Shown here: piece after piece, positions 1 through 6,028 of the stretch
How the letters are laid out: each line of letters starts with the position of its first letter
How positions within the stretch are numbered: position 1 is the stretch's first letter
Origin: a virus
Taxonomy: Duplodnaviria > Heunggongvirae > Uroviricota > Caudoviricetes
Reading direction: 5' to 3' (one strand)
DNA length: 6,028 nucleotides
IMG/VR virus record: IMGVR_UViG_2778261084_000002
The notes under the pieces: generated by a model
Told to the model about the DNA's origin: nothing
The model's input: the letters and a program-made list of their open reading frames with translations, nothing else
The model's database searches: none
Program-made: the position numbers and the translations under genes

Positions 1-357
1 CTTGCCGTTCGTGGGGAGTGGCAGGAGCGGAAGATTGCGCAGGTCAGTAAGCCTGCCCCCGCAATTAATATCACACCCGTGGTCCCGGCTCCGCTGCCTC
101 CGGCGCTGGTCCCTGTTGTTGCGGCCAGCTCCCGCCCGGTGGCGGAGGCCATACGATCGCCAGTGGCATCAGTTCCTGCAGCTTCCCGTAATCGGGAGCC
201 GGTTGCCTCCGGATTTGGCGGTGAAATTCATGTTCATCTGCATAACGTTGTTACGCAGAATCCCCGCGAACTTGCGAAACTGGTAGGTGAAATGGTCAGG
301 GCAGAAATGGAACGGCGCGCCCGTGCCGGGCGTGGCAGTTTTTACGATAAAGATTGA
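1..357 (+). CDS. 3' end of a phage tail gene, 5'-truncated by the window edge; Pro/Ala-rich C-terminus lying directly upstream of the gpU-like gene, so possibly a tape-measure (P2 gpT-like) C-terminus
   Basis: Frame 1 is open from base 1 to TGA at 355-357. The mirror copy at 5672..6028 differs in this frame by synonymous changes (ccc/cct, gtc/gtt) and one V/I replacement, whereas the overlapping frame-2 ORF 2..286 accumulates replacements between copies. A GAGGAG Shine-Dalgarno for the next gene sits at 356-361. Product assignment is by gene order only. Confidence 0.45.
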   Translation, partial: LAVRGEWQERKIAQVSKPAPAINITPVVPAPLPPALVPVVAASSRPVAEAIRSPVASVPAASRNREPVASGFGGEIHVHLHNVVTQNPRELAKLVGEMVRAEMERRARAGRGSFYDKD

Positions 358-363
358 GGAGTC

Positions 364-858
364 ATGGCCATGATGATGATCTACGGCATGTTTGTTTTTG
401 AGCTGCGCACATTGCCGCATCAGCAGTTACAGCAAAACAAAAGCTGGCGGCATGTGAAAAATGAACGCGTTAACCGTTCAGCAAGCTGGCAGTATATCGG
501 TGCAGGAGATGATCGCATCGTTCTTTCTGGTGTGCTTTATCCTGAAATTACAGGTGGCGAAGTATCGCTGTCGCTGCTGACCACGCAGGCGTATACAGGA
601 CGACCCTGGCCTCTGATTGATGGCGTCGGGCAGATTTACGGCATGTATGTGCTGACTGAAACGAATACGACCCGTTCCGAGTTTGATCGCTACGGTAAGG
701 CGAAAAAGATAGAATTTTCACTGACCCTTGAACGCTGTGATGAGGATTTGCGGGAGCGCCTGCAATCCTCATCGTTCAGTGATATGCTGTCCGGCTTCAA
801 AGATAAGGTGACATCATCTCTTAACAGCGCGGCCAGTTCAGTTAAAGGGCTGTTCTGA
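364..858 (+). CDS. phage tail protein, P2 gpU-like (164 aa)
   Basis: ATG ORF with GAGGAG at 356-361; alternative in-frame ATGs at 370/373/376 have better spacing. The translation (YGMFVFELRTLPHQ ... IVLSGVLYPEITGG ... RPWPLIDGVGQIYGMYVL ... IEFSLTLERCDE) matches my recollection of the P2 GpU tail protein family. The mirror copy at 5171..5665 differs by 15 nt, 12 of them synonymous. Confidence 0.65.
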   Translation: MAMMMIYGMFVFELRTLPHQQLQQNKSWRHVKNERVNRSASWQYIGAGDDRIVLSGVLYPEITGGEVSLSLLTTQAYTGRPWPLIDGVGQIYGMYVLTETNTTRSEFDRYGKAKKIEFSLTLERCDEDLRERLQSSSFSDMLSGFKDKVTSSLNSAASSVKGLF

Positions 859-866
859 TTTTACAC

Positions 867-898
867 AAAAACCGCTAATGGTCAGATTAGCGGTTTTC
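867..898. terminator. bidirectional rho-independent terminator between convergent gpU-like and invertase genes
   Basis: Perfect hairpin: stem aaccgctaat (870-879), loop ggtcag, stem attagcggtt (886-895), flanked by an A-run upstream and T-run downstream, so U-tracts are available on both strands. The invertase stop codon (887-889, - strand) lies inside the stem. Confidence 0.6.
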
Positions 899-1486
899 AT
901 TTTCCTGAGTCTGCCCGGTTGTTTCTTCAGTCTGTATATCGCCTACAGGGTGATAACGATAAATCGTCGATGTGCCAATGCCGTAAATTATTGCCAGTTG
1001 TTTTCTGTCGTGCCCGTTTTTGATTAGCCTTGCTATTTGCTCATGCTGTTCTTTTGTCAGCTTCGGTCGACGTCCGCCTGTGCGCCCCCTTGCGCGCGCT
1101 GCCGCCAGCCCGGCCAGTGTACGTTCAACAATTAATTCACGTTCCATTTCAGCCAGGGCACCCATCACGTGGAAGAAAAAACGCCCCATTGGAGAAGATG
1201 TGTCTATGCTGTCGGTCAGACTGCGAAAATTAATCCCTCGCTCCCGTAGTTCCCCGACGAGAGAAATCAGATGTTTCATGCTTCGCCCGAGGCGATCCAG
1301 TTTCCAGACAACCAGCGTGTCACCTTTTTGAAGGCGCTTTAAAGCGCGTTTTAATCCCGGTCGGTCTGTCTTTGTCCCGCTTAATTTATCTTCAAATATT
1401 TGTTCACATCCTGCACAAACAAGAGCGTTTCGTTGCAGGTCTGTATTCTGGTCATTTGTTGATACCCTTACATAGCCAATCAGCAC
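887..1486 (-). CDS. site-specific serine DNA invertase, Gin/Pin/Cin/Hin (Din) family, left copy (199 aa from GTG)
   Basis: Translation from GTG (1486-1484) begins (M)LIGYVRVSTNDQNTDLQRNAL with the catalytic Ser in the VRVSTNDQ motif. It has the family's resolvase-type catalytic core (WKLDRLGRS, ERGINFRSLTDSIDTSSPMGRFFFHVMGALAEMEREL) and a C-terminal helix-turn-helix (GIGTSTIYRYHP). A GGGAGA Shine-Dalgarno precedes the GTG. The TTG at 1504 used by the ORF track is probably not the true start. Confidence 0.93.
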   Translation of the reverse strand: MLIGYVRVSTNDQNTDLQRNALVCAGCEQIFEDKLSGTKTDRPGLKRALKRLQKGDTLVVWKLDRLGRSMKHLISLVGELRERGINFRSLTDSIDTSSPMGRFFFHVMGALAEMERELIVERTLAGLAAARARGRTGGRRPKLTKEQHEQIARLIKNGHDRKQLAIIYGIGTSTIYRYHPVGDIQTEETTGQTQENENR

Positions 1487-1540: not shown

Positions 1541-1566
1541 TTATTTAAAACCTCGGTTTACAGGAA
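1541..1566. other. left 26-bp invertase crossover site (gix/cix/pix/hix-like), variant form
   Basis: ttatttaaaacc TC ggtttacaggaa: two imperfect 12-bp inverted half-sites around a 2-bp core, at the inner end of the arm and adjacent to the invertase gene. It differs from the right-hand site by TT versus CC at positions 5-6 of the outer half-site and one base in the inner half-site. Confidence 0.8.
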
Positions 1567-1590
1567 ACGGTAAACAGGGCTGGTAACGCC

Positions 1591-2427
1591 GTGCAAAAAA
1601 ATGGCGATACCTTGTCCGGTGGGCTTACTTTTGAAAATGACTCAATCCTTGCCTGGATTCGAAATACTGACTGGGCGAAGATTGGATTTAAAAATGATGC
1701 TGATGGTGACACTGATTCATACATGTGGTTTGAAACAGGCGACAACGGCAATGAATATTTCAAATGGAGAAGCCGCCAGAGCACCACAACAAAAGACCTG
1801 ATGACGCTGAAATGGGATGCACTAAATATTCTGGTAAATGCCGTCATTAATGGCAGTCTTGGAGTTGGTACGACGAATGCGTTAGGTGGTAGCTCTATTG
1901 TTCTTGGTGATAATGACACCGGATTCAAACAGAATGGTGATGGTATTCTGGATGTTTACGCTAATAGTCAGCGAGTATTCCGCTTTCAGAATGGAGTTGC
2001 TATTGCTTTTAAAAATATTCAGGCAGGTGATAGTAAAAAGTTCTCGCTATCCAGCTCTAATACATCCACGAAGAATATTACCTTTAATTTATGGGGTGCT
2101 TCCACCCGTCCAGTGGTTGCAGAGTTAGGCGATGAGGCCGGATGGCATTTCTATAGCCAGCGAAATACAGATAACTCGGTAATATTTGCTGTTAACGGTC
2201 AGATGCAACCCAGCAACTGGGGAAATTTTGATTCCCGCTATGTGAAAGATGTTCGCCTGGGTACGCGAGTTGTTCAATTGATGGCGCGAGGTGGTCGTTA
2301 TGAAAAAGCCGGACACACGATTACCGGATTAAGAATCATTGGTGAAGTAGATGGCGATGATGAAGCCATCTTCAGGCCGATACAAAAATACATCAATGGC
2401 ACATGGTATAACGTTGCGCAGGTGTAA
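1591..2427 (+). CDS. tail-fibre C-terminal (receptor-binding) cassette Sv; reading frame open from 1549 but separated from the arm ATG (1516) by TAA 1546-1548
   Basis: 278 aa from GTG 1591 (frame open from 1549, 292 codons). Gly/Asn/Thr/Ser/Trp-rich composition typical of fibre tips. C-terminus RPIQKYINGTWYNVAQV shares the RPIQ-Y-INGTWYN motif with the opposite cassette. Stop is 3 nt before the tfa ATG. The first ~25 codons inside the segment (NLGLQETVNRAGNAVQKN) parallel the other cassette. No convincing Shine-Dalgarno precedes GTG 1591. Confidence 0.75.
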   Translation: MQKNGDTLSGGLTFENDSILAWIRNTDWAKIGFKNDADGDTDSYMWFETGDNGNEYFKWRSRQSTTTKDLMTLKWDALNILVNAVINGSLGVGTTNALGGSSIVLGDNDTGFKQNGDGILDVYANSQRVFRFQNGVAIAFKNIQAGDSKKFSLSSSNTSTKNITFNLWGASTRPVVAELGDEAGWHFYSQRNTDNSVIFAVNGQMQPSNWGNFDSRYVKDVRLGTRVVQLMARGGRYEKAGHTITGLRIIGEVDGDDEAIFRPIQKYINGTWYNVAQV

Positions 2428-2430
2428 GTT

Positions 2431-2958
2431 ATGCAGCATTTAAAGAACATTAAGTCAGGTAATCCAAAAACAAAAGAGCAATATCAGCTAACAAAGAATT
2501 TTGATGTTATCTGGTTATGGTCCGAAGACGGAAAAAACTGGTATGAGGAAGTGAAGAACTTTCAGCCAGACACAATAAAGATTGTTTACGATGAAAATAA
2601 TATTATTGTCGCTATCACCAGAGATGCCTCAACGCTTAATCCCGAAGGCTTTAGTGTCGTTGAGATTCCAGATATAACAGCCAATCGTCGTGCCGATGAT
2701 TCAGGGAAGTGGATGTTTAAGGACGGAACTGTGGTTAAACGGATTTATACGACAGATGAGCAGCAACAACAGGCAGAATCACAAAAGGCCGCATTGCTTT
2801 CCGAAGCTGAATCAGTCATCCAGCCGCTGGAACGCGCTGTCAGGCTGAATATGGCAACAGACGAGGAACGCACACGACTGGAAGCATGGGAACGTTACAG
2901 TGTTCTGGTCAACCGTGTGGATACGGCAAATCCTGAATGGCCACAAAAGCCTGAATAA
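2431..2958 (+). CDS. tail-fibre assembly protein (Tfa; Mu U / e14 TfaE-like chaperone), 175 aa
   Basis: ATG preceded by AGGTG. N-terminus [24 protein letters not shown]...EDGKNWYEE...FQPDT...[27 protein letters not shown] is the conserved Tfa N-domain, with a divergent C-terminal third. Tightly coupled to the upstream fibre cassette. Confidence 0.9.
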
Positions 2959-2963
2959 AAATT

Positions 2964-2983
2964 AAGGCCCGATAGAGGGCCTT
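2964..2983. terminator. short hairpin between the convergent tfa genes (possible bidirectional terminator)
   Basis: aaggccc (2964-2970), loop gataga, gggcctt (2977-2983), preceded by an A-rich run and lying in the 28-bp gap between the two stop codons. The stem is only 7 bp and the T-tract is weak. Confidence 0.35.
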
Positions 2984-2986
2984 GTC

Positions 2987-3520
2987 TCATTCAGGTTGTT
3001 CGGGAAATGTTACTGGCAGGCTGGAGGTGTCTGTGGATTCGACTTTCTGCGCGTAGAGCATCCACTCGGTTAATTTTTGTTTATTCTCGTCGGAAATGAT
3101 GCCCAGCCGTAGCTGTGAGTCCCATAGCTGGGTTTTATCCCTGACAAGTTGCAACAGGCTTTGCTTTTCATTCTCTGCCTGCTGCCTCTGTTCCTCCTCG
3201 GTATAAGTTCGCTTTATCACTACGCCATCTTTGAACATCCATTTACCCGAAATATCAGCCCGGCGATTTGCTGTAATATCAGGAACCTCAACGACGCTTG
3301 CGCCTTCTGGATTAATTGCTGAAACATCCTTTTCAATACAAATAATAACGTCGTTGTGGTCATAGACCATTTTCAACGTATCAGGCTGAAAGTTCTTTTG
3401 TTCCTCATACCAGTTTTTCCCATCCTCTGTATAAAGCCATTTGATGTTAAATTGTTTCGTTAGCTGGTATTGTTCTTTTGTTTTAGGGTTGCCAGCAGTA
3501 ATATTTTTTAAGTGCATCAT
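2987..3520 (-). CDS. tail-fibre assembly protein Tfa' (second, divergent copy), 177 aa
   Basis: [24 protein letters not shown]...EDGKNWYEE...FQPDT...[30 protein letters not shown]: about 70% identical to the other Tfa over the N-terminal ~105 aa, with an unrelated C-terminus. GGGGAG Shine-Dalgarno upstream; start is 2 nt after the Sv' stop. Confidence 0.9.
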   Translation of the reverse strand: MMHLKNITAGNPKTKEQYQLTKQFNIKWLYTEDGKNWYEEQKNFQPDTLKMVYDHNDVIICIEKDVSAINPEGASVVEVPDITANRRADISGKWMFKDGVVIKRTYTEEEQRQQAENEKQSLLQLVRDKTQLWDSQLRLGIISDENKQKLTEWMLYAQKVESTDTSSLPVTFPEQPE

Positions 3521-3522
3521 AA

Positions 3523-4518
3523 TTAAATACTCCCCGCGTTATACCACGTTCCATTAATGCAATACTGAATTGGCCTTGCCTGAGTTGTATCAATTAATGC
3601 ATCACGGTTTCCGTTAACTGAACCCGTAACGACATAACCTGACCTGTCAGACCAGCCGGGACCATTCCATGTCTGAACAGATGACAGACCGCCAAGGCGA
3701 ATACCTGTAATAAACCTTGAGTTACATTCTGCCTGCGTATATGCACCAACATCTCCCGCAGAGGGTTTGCGGGTCGTGGTGTAAAACTCTGACCAGTCAG
3801 CCTCAAATCCATAACCATCACGCGCTGAACGATAAAAAATACCGCCGTTCCTGTAATTCACGCGGAACTGTACAGCAGGGCAGCTCCCCGTATTCATATT
3901 GAAGTGGAGGATTAATGTCGATGCGCCACCAATATTTGCGTTATAGACCCCGCTATTCCAGTTCCAGCCAACAGCTTTATCATTTCCGACAGTGCTTCCT
4001 GTTTGCCCTAAAGCAAATGCAGGCTGCTGGTTTTTCGTGTTGTAGTCTCGTCGCCAGCCAGGAGCATAAGCATCACCATGATTAATATAGGTGAATTGAG
4101 CGTTAGTAATTCCGCCGCCGCTGGACGTACTCGGCGTAGTAACGCGTATGGTCATTGCGCCGCGAGTGCCAATAACTTCCACCACAGCACCTGCAAGACA
4201 AATATTTCCGCAACCTGTATCTGTAATGACCTTATTATTTGCATAAGCCCATGAGCCTTTGCACATCCAGTAAGGATGGTTAAATGCTCCCTGACTCTCC
4301 AGCCACGAAATAAATTGCGCGGTTGTCCAGACCTGACTATCGCCACCAATATTCAGCCATGAGCTATATGCCCGGCAGGCACCAATATTTTTGGTGAAGG
4401 TATCTTTTCCTGGAATATCTGCACCGTTCTGATTTTTCTGTAATGCGCCAGAAGCCTGATTTACCGTTTCCAGTAAACCGAGGTTTTGGATAATGGCCGT
4501 TTCCGGCCTGCATGGCAT
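3523..4518 (-). CDS. tail-fibre C-terminal (receptor-binding) cassette Sv', 331 aa, currently in frame with an ATG located in the right arm
   Basis: ORF runs from ATG 4518-4516 through the right crossover site into the segment, so MPCRPETAII is arm-encoded and QNLGLLETVNQ... begins within the site. C-terminus RPIQYCINGTWYNAGSI carries the shared motif. No good Shine-Dalgarno precedes the ATG, and an in-frame TGA lies 7 codons upstream, so there is no longer constant N-terminal part. Confidence 0.8.
   Translation of the reverse strand: MPCRPETAIIQNLGLLETVNQASGALQKNQNGADIPGKDTFTKNIGACRAYSSWLNIGGDSQVWTTAQFISWLESQGAFNHPYWMCKGSWAYANNKVITDTGCGNICLAGAVVEVIGTRGAMTIRVTTPSTSSGGGITNAQFTYINHGDAYAPGWRRDYNTKNQQPAFALGQTGSTVGNDKAVGWNWNSGVYNANIGGASTLILHFNMNTGSCPAVQFRVNYRNGGIFYRSARDGYGFEADWSEFYTTTRKPSAGDVGAYTQAECNSRFITGIRLGGLSSVQTWNGPGWSDRSGYVVTGSVNGNRDALIDTTQARPIQYCINGTWYNAGSI
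4466..4494 (+). promoter_or_regulatory. putative sigma70 promoter for the right invertase, overlapping the crossover site
   Basis: -10 candidate GATAAT (4489-4494) with a weak -35 TTTCCA (4467-4472) and 16-bp spacer, ~55 bp upstream of GTG 4548. The mirror position in the left arm (1540..1567, - strand) has AATAAT. Based on sequence inspection only; in characterised Din systems (as I recall for Mu gin and P1 cin) the invertase promoter sits at the adjacent crossover site. Confidence 0.25.
4468..4493. other. right 26-bp invertase crossover site (gix/cix/pix/hix-like), canonical-looking form
   Basis: + strand ttccagtaaaccgaggttttggataa; - strand ttatccaaaacc TC ggtttactggaa. In inverted orientation relative to the left site and 55 bp upstream of the invertase start. 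Confidence 0.8.
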
Positions 4519-4547
4519 GATTTGCGCTTTTGGACGGGAGATTCAGC

Positions 4548-5135
4548 GTGCTGATTGGCTATGTAAGGGTATCAACAAATGACCAGAATACAGACTTGCA
4601 ACGAAACGCTCTTGTTTGTGCAGGATGCGAACAAATATTTGAAGATAAATTAAGCGGGACAAAGACAGACCGACCGGGATTAAAACGCGCTTTAAAGCGC
4701 CTTCAAAAAGGTGACACGCTGGTTGTCTGGAAACTGGATCGCCTCGGGCGAAGCATGAAACATCTGATTTCTCTCGTCGGGGAACTACGGGAGCGAGGGA
4801 TTAATTTTCGCAGTCTGACCGACAGCATAGATACATCTTCTCCAATGGGGCGTTTTTTCTTCCACGTGATGGGTGCCCTAGCTGAAATGGAACGTGAATT
4901 AATTGTTGAACGTACACTGGCCGGACTGGCGGCAGCGCGCGCACGGGGGCGCACAGGCGGACGTCGACCGAAGCTGACAAAAGAACAGCATGAGCAAATA
5001 GCAAGGCTGATTAAAAACGGTCACGACAGAAAACAACTGGCAATAATTTACGGCATTGGTACATCGACGATTTATCGTTACCACCCCGCAGGAGAATCAA
5101 GCGGAACAATAGAGAAGAGTCAGAAAACAAAATAA
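4548..5135 (+). CDS. site-specific serine DNA invertase, Gin/Pin/Cin/Hin (Din) family, right copy (195 aa from GTG)
   Basis: Same core protein as the left copy (12 nucleotide differences, all synonymous, by hand alignment) but a different C-terminal tail after ...IYRYHP (AGESSGTIEKSQKTK versus VGDIQTEETTGQTQENENR). GTG start with GGGAGA Shine-Dalgarno. Confidence 0.93.
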   Translation: MLIGYVRVSTNDQNTDLQRNALVCAGCEQIFEDKLSGTKTDRPGLKRALKRLQKGDTLVVWKLDRLGRSMKHLISLVGELRERGINFRSLTDSIDTSSPMGRFFFHVMGALAEMERELIVERTLAGLAAARARGRTGGRRPKLTKEQHEQIARLIKNGHDRKQLAIIYGIGTSTIYRYHPAGESSGTIEKSQKTK

Positions 5136-5162
5136 CCGCTAATCTGACCATTAGCGGTTTTT
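5134..5162. terminator. bidirectional rho-independent terminator between the invertase and the convergent gpU-like gene
   Basis: aaccgctaat (5134-5143), loop ctgacc, attagcggtt (5150-5159), then TTTTT; A-rich on the other side. Mirror of 867..898. Confidence 0.6.
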
Positions 5163-5170
5163 GTGTTAAA

Positions 5171-5665
5171 TCAGAACAGCCCTTTAACTGAAGTGGCCGC
5201 GCTGTTAAGAGATGATGTCACCTTATCTTTGAAGCCGGACAGCATATCACTGAACGATGAGGATTGCAGGCGCTCCCGCAAATCCTCATCACAGCGTTCA
5301 AGGGTCAGTGAAAACTCTATCTTTTTCGCCTTGCCGTAGCGATCAAACTCGGAGCGGGTCGTACTTGTGTCAGTCAGAACATACATGCCGTAAATCTGCC
5401 CGACGCCATCAATCAGAGGCCAGGGGCGTCCGGTATACGCCTGTGTGGTCAGCAGCGACAGGGACACTTCGCCACCTGTGATTTCAGGATAAAGCACACC
5501 AGAAAGAACGATGCGATCATCACCTGCACCGATATACTGCCAGCTTGCTGAACGGTTAACGCGTTCATTTTTCACATGCCGCCAGCTTTTGTTTTGCTGT
5601 AACTGCTGATGCGGCAATGTGCGCAGCTCAAAAACAAACATGCCGTAGATCATCATCATGGCCAT
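5171..5665 (-). CDS. phage tail protein, P2 gpU-like (164 aa), second copy
   Basis: Mirror of 364..858 with three amino-acid differences (E->D, N->S, S->T) and 12 synonymous changes. Confidence 0.65.
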   Translation of the reverse strand: MAMMMIYGMFVFELRTLPHQQLQQNKSWRHVKNERVNRSASWQYIGAGDDRIVLSGVLYPEITGGEVSLSLLTTQAYTGRPWPLIDGVGQIYGMYVLTDTSTTRSEFDRYGKAKKIEFSLTLERCDEDLRERLQSSSFSDMLSGFKDKVTSSLNSAATSVKGLF

Positions 5666-5671
5666 GACTCC

Positions 5672-6028
5672 TCAATCTTTATCGTAAAAACTGCCACGCC
5701 CGGCACGGGCGCGCCGTTCCATTTCTGCCCTGACCATTTCACCGACCAGTTTCGCCAGTTCGCGGGGATTCTGCGTAATAACGTTATGCAGATGAACATG
5801 AATTTCACCACCAAATCCGGAGGCAACAGGCTCCCGGTTACGGGAAGCTGCAGGAACTGATGCCACTGGCGATCGTATGGCCTCTGCCACCGGGCGGGAG
5901 CTGGCCGCAACAACAGGGACCAGCGCCGGAGGCAGCGGAGCCGGAACCACAGGTGTGATATTAATTGCGGGGGCAGGCTTACTGACCTGCGCAATCTTCC
6001 GCTCCTGCCACTCCCCACGAACGGCAAG
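5672..6028 (-). CDS. 3' end of a phage tail gene (possibly tape-measure C-terminus), second copy, truncated by the window edge
   Basis: Mirror of 1..357; the frame is open to the window edge, with one V/I replacement in the last 92 codons. Confidence 0.45.
   Translation of the reverse strand, partial: LAVRGEWQERKIAQVSKPAPAINITPVVPAPLPPALVPVVAASSRPVAEAIRSPVASVPAASRNREPVASGFGGEIHVHLHNVITQNPRELAKLVGEMVRAEMERRARAGRGSFYDKD

What the first reader, a model, noticed from the sequence alone, without database searches (positions are those of the whole stretch)
4460..4720. Two invertase genes, and presumably two enhancers and two promoters, flank one segment
Both invertase copies appear intact and under purifying selection, and both sit about 55 bp outside their own crossover site, pointing outward. 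In Gin, Hin and Cin systems the Fis-dependent recombinational enhancer lies within the 5' coding region of the invertase gene, so this locus would carry two enhancers in mirror positions about 3 kb apart. Invertasome assembly normally uses one enhancer with two sites, so two could change inversion rate or topology, and invertase dosage would be doubled. I could not pinpoint convincing Fis sites by eye; this is an expectation from family knowledge.
Basis: partly seen in the sequence, partly recalled or inferred. Interest (0 to 1): 0.5.

Follow-up and report, generated by a model that had tools for sequence, protein, structure and literature searches.

The report
Probably chimeric contig around Gin switch
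The window is an ordinary Mu-type tail-fibre inversion switch of a P2-like E. coli prophage, and the unusual feature (an invertase gene on both sides) is most likely a short-read assembly joining two co-resident prophage copies, not a new kind of switch.

Summary
Two intact Gin-type invertase genes (887-1486 minus, 4548-5135 plus) each lie 54 bp outside a 26-bp gix site and point outward. Both keep the 5' coding sequence that holds the Fis enhancer in Mu gin.

The window is a whole 6,028-bp draft contig (NNWW01000090.1) and a near-palindrome. Its two ends are the same 77-mer in opposite orientation, which is the mark of a k=77 de Bruijn graph. The arms differ by 3-5%, almost all at synonymous sites, so they come from two phage lineages. 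From the left gix crossover rightward, the contig differs by 1 nt in 4,479 from a normal single-invertase prophage.

No tail-fibre constant part adjoins the segment, so the switch has nothing to switch.

None of 1,938 finished E. coli genomes carrying this module (about 2,400 loci), and no phage or plasmid record, has the two-invertase layout. The two other draft or metagenome contigs in which two invertase genes directly flank a segment have the extra invertase arm running into a contig end.

Best reading: a chimeric contig, about 0.6. Rival: a real gix-by-gix exchange between two prophages, about 0.3. Interest is low either way.

The parts
1..77 (.). Terminal 77-mer. It is the exact reverse complement of 5952-6028, and the first mismatch is at nt 78.
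   Evidence: This is the signature of a k=77 de Bruijn graph vertex shared by both ends of the contig.
1..357 (+). 3' end of the tape measure gene, copy A.
   Evidence: PF10145 in relatives. It differs from copy B by 8 synonymous and 1 non-synonymous change.
370..858 (+). gpU-type tail protein, copy A (162 aa).
   Evidence: PF06995. It differs from copy B by 12 synonymous and 3 non-synonymous changes.
868..897 (.). Hairpin between the convergent gpU and invertase genes; terminator-like.
887..1486 (-). Gin-type DNA invertase, copy A (199 aa, GTG start at 1486).
   Evidence: This exact protein is listed in 13,761 blocks of the public protein collection, and every contig shown for it has one invertase.
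1402..1464 (-). Inferred recombinational enhancer of copy A. Fis-site cores lie at about 1450-1464 and 1402-1416 (gene nt 23-37 and 71-85).
   Evidence: Identical to Mu gin here. Synonymous-constraint islands. Function is inferred, not tested.
1541..1566 (-). Left gix crossover site, TTCCTGTAAACC-GA-GGTTTTAAATAA. On the plus strand the crossover dinucleotide reads TC, at 1553-1554.
   Evidence: The breakpoint between lineages A and B lies within 1550-1561.
1567..4467 (.). G-segment-type invertible segment. It holds Sv (1591-2427, +), tfa (2431-2958, +), tfa' (2987-3520, -) and S'v (3523 to about 4467, -; the ORF runs on to 4518).
   Evidence: About 94% identical to the Mu G segment over 2392-4927. 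No mismatch to the normal prophage L016 anywhere in the segment.
4468..4493 (+). Right gix crossover site, TTCCAGTAAACC-GA-GGTTTTGGATAA.
4467..4494 (+). Sigma-70-like hexamers TTTCCA-16-GATAAT overlapping the right gix; a possible invertase promoter.
   Evidence: One match was found where 0.8 is expected by chance. The left copy falls below the scan threshold. This is weak evidence.
4548..5135 (+). Gin-type DNA invertase, copy B (195 aa), identical to the phage P88 invertase.
4570..4632 (+). Inferred recombinational enhancer of copy B. Fis-site cores lie at about 4570-4584 and 4618-4632. Further Fis-like 15-mers are centred at 4588, 4636, 4648 and 4683.
   Evidence: PMC3378877 reports three Fis sites inside the Mu gin coding region.
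5134..5159 (.). Hairpin between the convergent invertase and gpU genes; terminator-like.
5171..5659 (-). gpU-type tail protein, copy B.
5672..6028 (-). 3' end of the tape measure gene, copy B.

Best explanation
The parts are an ordinary Mu-G-segment-type host-range switch of a P88-like (Xuanwuvirus, P2-family) E. coli prophage.

How the normal switch works (established knowledge of the Gin/Hin/Cin family):
- A Gin orthologue binds two inverted 26-bp gix sites.
- A Fis-bound enhancer lies inside the 5' part of the invertase gene.
- Together they flip a 2.9-kb segment, which places one of two alternative tail-fibre C-termini, each with its own chaperone, behind the constant tail-fibre gene.

In every well-assembled relative there is one invertase, laid out as: tail-fibre constant part, gix, segment, gix, invertase, gpU, tape measure.

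The mirror layout in this window is most likely not a real molecule. It is a 6,028-bp short-read contig. The assembly path leaves a shared 77-mer in the tape measure gene along prophage copy A. It crosses the segment and returns along prophage copy B to the same 77-mer. At the left gix it took the invertase-A branch instead of the tail-fibre branch.

Shown here: the identity of the parts, the two-lineage origin of the arms, the breakpoint at gix, the graph signature at the ends, and the absence of the layout from finished genomes.

Inferred: that the join was made by the assembler and not by the cell.
For: - The window is the whole contig NNWW01000090.1 of draft assembly GCA_002486795.1.
- The two ends are exact reverse complements for exactly 77 nt.
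- The arms are 3-5% diverged. Differences are 12 synonymous / 0 non-synonymous in the invertase, 12/3 in gpU and 8/1 in the tape measure gene. Each arm matches a different natural lineage, at 99.4% and 99.9%.
- Window 1550-6028 differs at one base from a normal prophage (L016), which has the tail-fibre constant part where the window has arm A. Left of 1550 the window follows lineage A. The switch lies inside the 12 nt that include the gix crossover dinucleotide.
- A query made of the two arms with a random spacer found no finished E. coli genome with both arms on one strand within about 3.5 kb. The count was 0 of 1,938 genomes and about 2,400 loci.
- No record in finished E. coli genomes, phages or plasmids covers at least 80% of the window.
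- Among 263 fetched loci, the only other contigs in which two invertase genes directly flank a segment are draft or metagenome contigs. In both (L198, L245) the extra invertase arm runs into a contig end.
- 41 of 183 loci begin less than 260 nt upstream of the invertase start. This shows the junction is a usual trouble spot for assemblers.
Against: - A conservative assembler should break at a branched gix junction, not pick a branch, and most draft contigs do break there. An unbranched path from arm A through the segment to arm B is what a real structure would give.
- The arms are not identical, so this is not the simple fold-back artefact.
- A breakpoint exactly at the gix core is also what real invertase-mediated exchange between two prophages would leave.
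- I had no reads, coverage values or assembly graph.
- L198 is a second, independent contig with the same layout (arms about 98% identical).
Confidence: 0.6

Rival explanations
1. The structure is real. Two related P88-like prophages in one chromosome recombined with each other. The route was either Gin acting on the gix next to invertase A and the tail-fibre-side gix of prophage B, or homologous exchange at that site. The DNA between them was inverted. One product is invertase A, segment, invertase B, which is this contig. The reciprocal product is a segment flanked by two tail-fibre constant parts. The contig's segment could still flip, since it has two inverted gix sites, two enhancers in cis and two invertase genes. 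It would have no phenotype, because no constant tail-fibre part reads into it.
For: - The breakpoint between lineages falls inside the 12-nt gix core window.
- The contig crosses both gix sites without a break, whereas most draft contigs stop there.
- A second, independent contig has the same layout with 2% diverged arms (L198).
- Trabulsiella locus L127 lies inside a 232-kb contig. It shows that two-invertase rearranged remnants of such prophages do exist.
Against: - The count in finished E. coli genomes is 0 of about 2,400 loci. Several hundred of those genomes carry more than one copy (4,799 places in 1,938 genomes, two places per locus).
- No phage or plasmid record has the layout.
- In every draft case where the invertase genes directly flank a segment, the extra arm ends at a contig end, so no unique flank anchors it.
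- A breakpoint at gix is equally expected from a wrong branch choice in the graph, because invertase-A-to-Sv junction reads exist whenever prophage A carries the same segment in that orientation.
Confidence: 0.3
2. One reading: a maintained, functional architecture in which two invertase genes and two enhancers jointly control one segment, changing inversion rate, topology or invertase dosage.
For: Both genes are intact, with no non-synonymous differences in 180 codons. Both enhancer regions and both gix sites are conserved.
Against: - The synonymous-only divergence is between two phage lineages, each of which occurs alone in thousands of genomes. It does not show maintenance of a pair.
- The segment has no tail-fibre constant part to complete, so selection has nothing to act on.
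- The layout is absent from all finished genomes, phages and plasmids searched.
Confidence: 0.03
3. An inverted duplication, made in place, of the tape measure / gpU / invertase arm of a single prophage.
For: The near-palindromic shape of the window.
Against: - The arms differ at about 9% of synonymous sites, and the invertase C-terminal tails are different.
- Each arm is 99.4-99.9% identical to a different natural prophage lineage.
Confidence: 0.02

Closest known systems
Bacteriophage Mu G segment with Gin, gixL/gixR and the sis enhancer
   Same: - The window is about 94% identical to Mu over 2392-4927, which covers most of the segment and the 5' two-thirds of the right invertase gene.
- The gix sites match at 24 and 25 of 26 positions.
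- The invertase is 81% identical overall and identical in 99 of its first 100 residues.
- The 5' coding region that holds the Fis sites in Mu is about 99% identical (PMC3378877).
- The gene content is the same: Sv, U, U' and S'v.
   Different: - The host phage here is a P2-type (Xuanwuvirus) prophage, not Mu.
- The invertase tails differ.
- Mu has one gin gene, with the S constant part on the other side of the segment. The window has an invertase on both sides and no constant part.
Escherichia phage P88 and other Xuanwuvirus prophages (tail-fibre inversion module)
   Same: - The right-hand invertase is identical to the P88 invertase.
- The order segment, invertase, gpU, tape measure is the same.
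- Window 1550-6028 differs by 1 nt from such a prophage (L016).
   Different: All of these have a single invertase, with the tail-fibre constant part on the far side of the segment.
Hin/hix (Salmonella), Cin/cix (P1) and Pin (e14) Fis-dependent invertase systems
   Same: - A serine invertase, two inverted 26-bp sites, and an enhancer with a Fis-site pair inside the 5' end of the invertase gene. In Hin the proximal Fis site is about 100 bp from the nearest crossover site (PMC3798978).
- The constraint islands found here lie about 97 and 145 bp from gix.
   Different: Each of these systems uses one invertase gene and one enhancer.
Chimeric contigs at invertible or inverted repeats in short-read de Bruijn assemblies
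   Same: - The contig starts and ends on the same k-mer in opposite orientation.
- It joins two diverged repeat copies across a shared segment.
- The layout is seen only in draft contigs, where the extra arm ends at a contig end.
   Different: The arms are not identical, and the join is unbranched through two sites where assemblers usually stop. The artefact is therefore inferred, not demonstrated.

Membership tests
Fis-dependent DNA invertase switch (Gin/Hin/Cin/Pin type) | A small serine recombinase with an N-terminal catalytic domain (Ser9) and a C-terminal helix-turn-helix. | tested here: met
   Both genes carry PF00239 and PF02796 (gene table). The alignment with Gin shows Ser9, and residues 1-100 are 99 of 100 identical.
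Fis-dependent DNA invertase switch (Gin/Hin/Cin/Pin type) | Two 26-bp crossover sites in inverted orientation around the segment. | tested here: met
   Sites at 1541-1566 (minus strand) and 4468-4493 (plus strand), with 2 and 1 mismatches to Mu gix. None is expected by chance.
Fis-dependent DNA invertase switch (Gin/Hin/Cin/Pin type) | A recombinational enhancer with a Fis-site pair in cis, inside the 5' coding region of the invertase gene. | tested here: inconclusive
   The sequence is about 99% identical to the Mu gin region reported to hold three Fis sites (PMC3378877). Synonymous-constraint islands lie at gene nt 25-36 and 73-81. A simple motif scan alone was ambiguous. Fis binding and enhancer activity cannot be tested with these tools.
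Fis-dependent DNA invertase switch (Gin/Hin/Cin/Pin type) | One invertase gene and one enhancer per invertible segment. | tested here: not met
   The contig has two, one on each side. All finished relatives have one.
Phage tail-fibre host-range switch (Mu G, P1 C, P88 type) | The segment carries two alternative tail-fibre C-terminal parts, each with its own assembly chaperone, in opposite orientation. | tested here: met
   Sv 1591-2427 with tfa 2431-2958 on the plus strand, and tfa' 2987-3520 with S'v from 3523 on the minus strand. The Pfam families are Gp34_trimer and Caudo_TAP.
Phage tail-fibre host-range switch (Mu G, P1 C, P88 type) | A constant N-terminal tail-fibre part outside the segment that reads across a crossover site into the segment. 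| tested here: not met
   Neither flank of the window has it. Relatives have a 617-764 aa tail-fibre gene with PF12571 and PF03406 there. L016 has it exactly where the window has arm A.
Assembly chimera at a repeat | Contig ends lie on a shared k-mer, and the joined parts come from different repeat copies. | tested here: met
   The 77-nt ends are exact reverse complements. The arms match two lineages.
Assembly chimera at a repeat | Reads or long reads contradict the join. | not testable with these tools
   No reads, coverage values or assembly graph of GCA_002486795.1 were available.

The most novel reading that the evidence does not exclude
The contig is real and records invertase-mediated (gix by gix) exchange between two co-resident P88-like prophages. 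One product is an orphan G-type segment flanked by two gin genes and two enhancers. The other, elsewhere in the chromosome, is a segment shared by two tail-fibre genes. This would mean phage invertases can rearrange bacterial chromosomes between prophages, and it would provide a natural two-enhancer substrate.
Probability: 0.28. Interest if true: 0.4.

Novelty: not a real feature. Interest (0 to 1): 0.12.

Why it matters
If the layout were real, it would be a natural case of a phage invertase recombining sites in two different prophages, and a ready-made test of how an invertasome behaves with an enhancer next to each crossover site. As it stands, its main value is a caution. Invertible segments shared by related prophages can produce plausible-looking mirror contigs in draft assemblies. 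Purifying selection between the two halves of such a contig says nothing about function in place.

Tried and rejected
- A Fis motif scan (G at -7, C at +7, AT-rich centre, pyrimidine-purine steps) gave many moderate hits, at gene nt 41, 78, 89, 101 and 136. It could not pick the sites on its own. I replaced it with a synonymous-constraint analysis over 171 distinct homologues.
- The promoter scan gave one match overlapping the right gix and none at the left copy. That is no more than chance, so "two promoters" stays unsupported.
- The classic mapping papers for the gin and cin enhancers (PMC146962, PMC400844) and a review (PMC4384473) are not held. The exact published Fis-site coordinates could therefore not be quoted.
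- I could not retrieve other contigs of the same assembly. The protein look-up is by exact sequence and lists the longest contigs first, so the reciprocal junction could not be examined.
- Comparing proxy genomes upstream of the contig ends was uninformative.
- In-place inverted duplication was rejected because of the arm divergence.
- A simple fold-back on one prophage was rejected because the arms are not identical.

Full report
**What is in the window**

The ORF map and the repeat search show a near-palindrome. In order, the window holds:
- the 3' end of a tape measure gene (1-357, +)
- a gpU-type tail protein (370-858, +)
- a serine invertase (887-1486, -)
- a 26-bp crossover site (1541-1566)
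- a 2.9-kb segment
- a second crossover site (4468-4493)
- a second invertase (4548-5135, +)
- a second gpU gene (5171-5659, -)
- a second tape measure 3' end (5672-6028, -)

The segment carries two tail-fibre C-terminal parts and two tail-fibre assembly genes in opposite orientation. These are Sv 1591-2427 and tfa 2431-2958 on the plus strand, and tfa' 2987-3520 and S'v from 3523 on the minus strand.

The arms 1-895 / 5134-6028 and 939-1602 / 4432-5095 are 97% and 95% complementary.

**Check of the observation**

- Both invertases are intact. They are identical in residues 1-180, including Ser9, and differ only in their tails. The right copy is identical to the invertase of phage P88.
- Codons 1-180 differ by 12 synonymous and 0 non-synonymous substitutions.
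- The Mu gix sequence matches at 1541-1566 (2 mismatches) and 4468-4493 (1 mismatch), with none expected by chance.
- Each site lies 54 nt from its invertase start codon.

**What the module is**

- Window 2392-4927, which covers most of the segment and the 5' two-thirds of the right invertase gene, is about 94% identical to the Mu G segment and gin.
- The closest complete relatives are P88-like (Xuanwuvirus) P2-family prophages of E. coli.
- In all of them the order is: tail-fibre gene (constant part plus one variable part), tfa, tfa', the other variable part, invertase, gpU, tape measure. There is one invertase, and the constant tail-fibre part sits on the far side of the segment.

The window has neither feature. 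It has an invertase on both sides and no constant part.

**The enhancers**

- The first ~250 nt of both invertase genes are about 99% identical to Mu gin. The left copy is identical to Mu over gene nt 1-110. The right copy has two synonymous changes there.
- PMC3378877 states that three Fis sites were identified inside the gin coding region. [quoted passage not shown]
- A simple Fis motif scan was ambiguous.
  - Codons 9-12 (gene nt 25-36) have entropies of 0.05-0.2. Comparable Ser and Thr codons elsewhere in the gene score about 1.2-2.3.
  - Codons 25-27 (nt 73-81) are also constrained.
  - The two islands are about 48 nt apart and lie about 97 and 145 bp from the gix centre.
- That is the geometry expected of the Fis-site pair. 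The 48-bp spacing is from my own knowledge of the Hin literature.
- In window coordinates the cores are about 4570-4584 and 4618-4632 on the right, and 1450-1464 and 1402-1416 on the left.

Both enhancer sequences are present. Whether they are active was not tested. Promoter-like hexamers overlap the right gix only, and at chance level.

**Where the window comes from**

- An exact-protein look-up shows the window is the complete contig NNWW01000090.1 (6,028 bp) of draft assembly GCA_002486795.1.
- Its first and last 77 nt are exact reverse complements, and the first mismatch is at nt 78. That is what a contig looks like when it leaves and re-enters one vertex of a k=77 de Bruijn graph.
- The arms share exact runs of 221, 121 and 203 nt and are otherwise diverged.

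**Two lineages joined at gix**

- In a search with the two arms separated by a random spacer, the right arm matched prophages of strains such as EC12 and STK77-E at 99.8-99.9%. The left arm matched prophages of strains such as UTI89 and SE11 at 99.3-99.4%.
- Window 1550-6028 differs at a single base from a normal prophage in a 43-kb contig (L016). That prophage has the tail-fibre constant part where the window has arm A.
- Left of 1550 the window follows lineage A, including the outer gix half-site TTATTTAAAACC.
- The switch between lineages lies inside the 12 nt ACCTCGGTTTAC, which contain the crossover dinucleotide.
- Synonymous divergence is similar in all three arm genes. This rules out a recent duplication in place.

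**Is the layout seen anywhere reliable?**

- No record in 5,426 finished E. coli genomes, 50,697 phage records or 72,556 plasmid records covers 80% of the window.
- The full window scores 75% on a normal locus, so it is a poor discriminator. I therefore searched with the two arms separated by 3.6 kb of random sequence. A two-invertase locus would then cover about 41% of the query and a normal locus about 21%.
- All 1,938 finished genomes with a match topped out at 21%. The search found 4,799 places, at two per locus, which is about 2,400 loci and implies several hundred genomes with more than one copy.
- I fetched 239 further loci from metagenome, species-representative and IMG/VR collections. 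Two invertase genes in one locus appear only in three of them:
  - L198: an IMG/VR contig whose 595-nt extra arm runs into the contig start. Its arms are about 98% identical.
  - L245: a P1-like metagenome contig. The extra invertase gene ends 208 nt from the contig start, and the arms are 78% identical.
  - L127: see below.
- 41 of 183 loci start less than 260 nt upstream of the invertase, which shows that assemblies usually break at this junction.

**L127, a real but different case**

In Trabulsiella odontotermitis, inside a 232-kb contig, two invertase genes 79% identical at the nucleotide level flank a 4.6-kb region. That region contains a truncated gpI gene, the tail-fibre constant part and several variable cassettes. 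Perfect 56-64-nt inverted repeats mark three crossover regions. So rearranged two-invertase remnants do exist, but this one keeps the constant tail-fibre part inside.

**Weighing the explanations**

For a chimeric contig:
- the graph signature at the ends;
- the two-lineage arms;
- the missing tail-fibre partner;
- the absence of the layout from about 2,400 finished loci, against its appearance in a small sample of draft contigs, always at a contig end.

For a real structure:
- the join is unbranched across two sites where assemblers normally stop;
- the breakpoint is exactly where Gin would cut;
- a second independent contig shows the same layout.

A real origin would be a gix-by-gix (or homologous) exchange between two directly oriented prophages. 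That would invert the DNA between them and leave a reciprocal product of tail fibre, segment, tail fibre.

I put the chimera at about 0.6, the real exchange at about 0.3, and a maintained functional two-enhancer design at a few per cent.

**Consequences if real**

The segment could still invert, because all cis and trans parts are present twice. It would have no output, because no constant tail-fibre gene reads into it. One enhancer is enough for invertasome assembly (family knowledge), so a second would at most compete with it. Nothing in the data suggests selection for the pair.

**Verdict**

The parts are real, well known and ordinary. The mirror architecture is probably not a feature of any genome. 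Interest is low. Reads or long reads from the isolate would settle it.

Noticed in passing
L127:1-6600 (Trabulsiella odontotermitis, NZ_JNGH01000101.1, 232-kb contig): Two invertase genes 79% identical at the nucleotide level point outward around a 4.6-kb region. The region holds a truncated gpI gene, the tail-fibre constant part, and three variable cassettes with two chaperone genes. Perfect 56-64-nt inverted repeats lie at 1416-1479, 2699-2754 and 4852-4915. This looks like a real rearranged, multi-site inversion locus in the middle of a long contig.
   Followed up: partly
L198:1-4300 (IMGVR_UViG_2526164633_000021): A second, independent contig with the layout invertase, segment, invertase. 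It carries a different Sv type, and its arms are about 98% identical. The extra arm is only 595 nt long and starts at the contig end.
   Followed up: partly
L245:1-3100 (IMGVR_UViG_3300045988_155300, P1-like; lydB and darA lie downstream): Two invertase genes with arms 78% identical flank a 1.7-kb segment that holds one tail-fibre C-terminal part and one chaperone gene. The left invertase gene ends 208 nt from the contig start.
   Followed up: partly
Invertase gene nt 25-36 and 73-81 (window 4572-4583 and 4620-4628; mirror 1451-1462 and 1406-1414): Synonymous sites are almost frozen across 171 distinct homologues from many Enterobacterales. Codon entropies are 0.05-0.2 where 1.2-2.3 is usual. 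This is a clean comparative footprint of a DNA element inside the coding sequence, presumably the Fis sites.
   Followed up: yes
L017 and L021 (about 7000-10300): Some relatives are deletion remnants. After the invertase and S'v, the prophage breaks off inside the tfa' gene (homology to the window starts at window nt 3244) and continues into unrelated genes, including an integrase. So truncated copies of this module, lacking the tail-fibre constant part, do occur.
   Followed up: no
L001 and L002: In these P88-like prophages the block from the tail sheath gene to gpU is inverted relative to the P2 gene order. The invertase sits between the invertible segment and gpU, convergent with it.
   Followed up: no
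window 1545-1546 and 4472: The two gix sites are not identical. The outer half-site is GGTTTTAAATAA on the left and GGTTTTGGATAA on the right. The inner half-site is TTCCAGTAAACC on the right and TTCCTGTAAACC on the left and in Mu.
   Followed up: partly
183 loci fetched: 41 of the 183 loci begin less than 260 nt upstream of the invertase start. Draft assemblies commonly break at the crossover site, probably because both orientations are present in the sequenced culture.
   Followed up: partly
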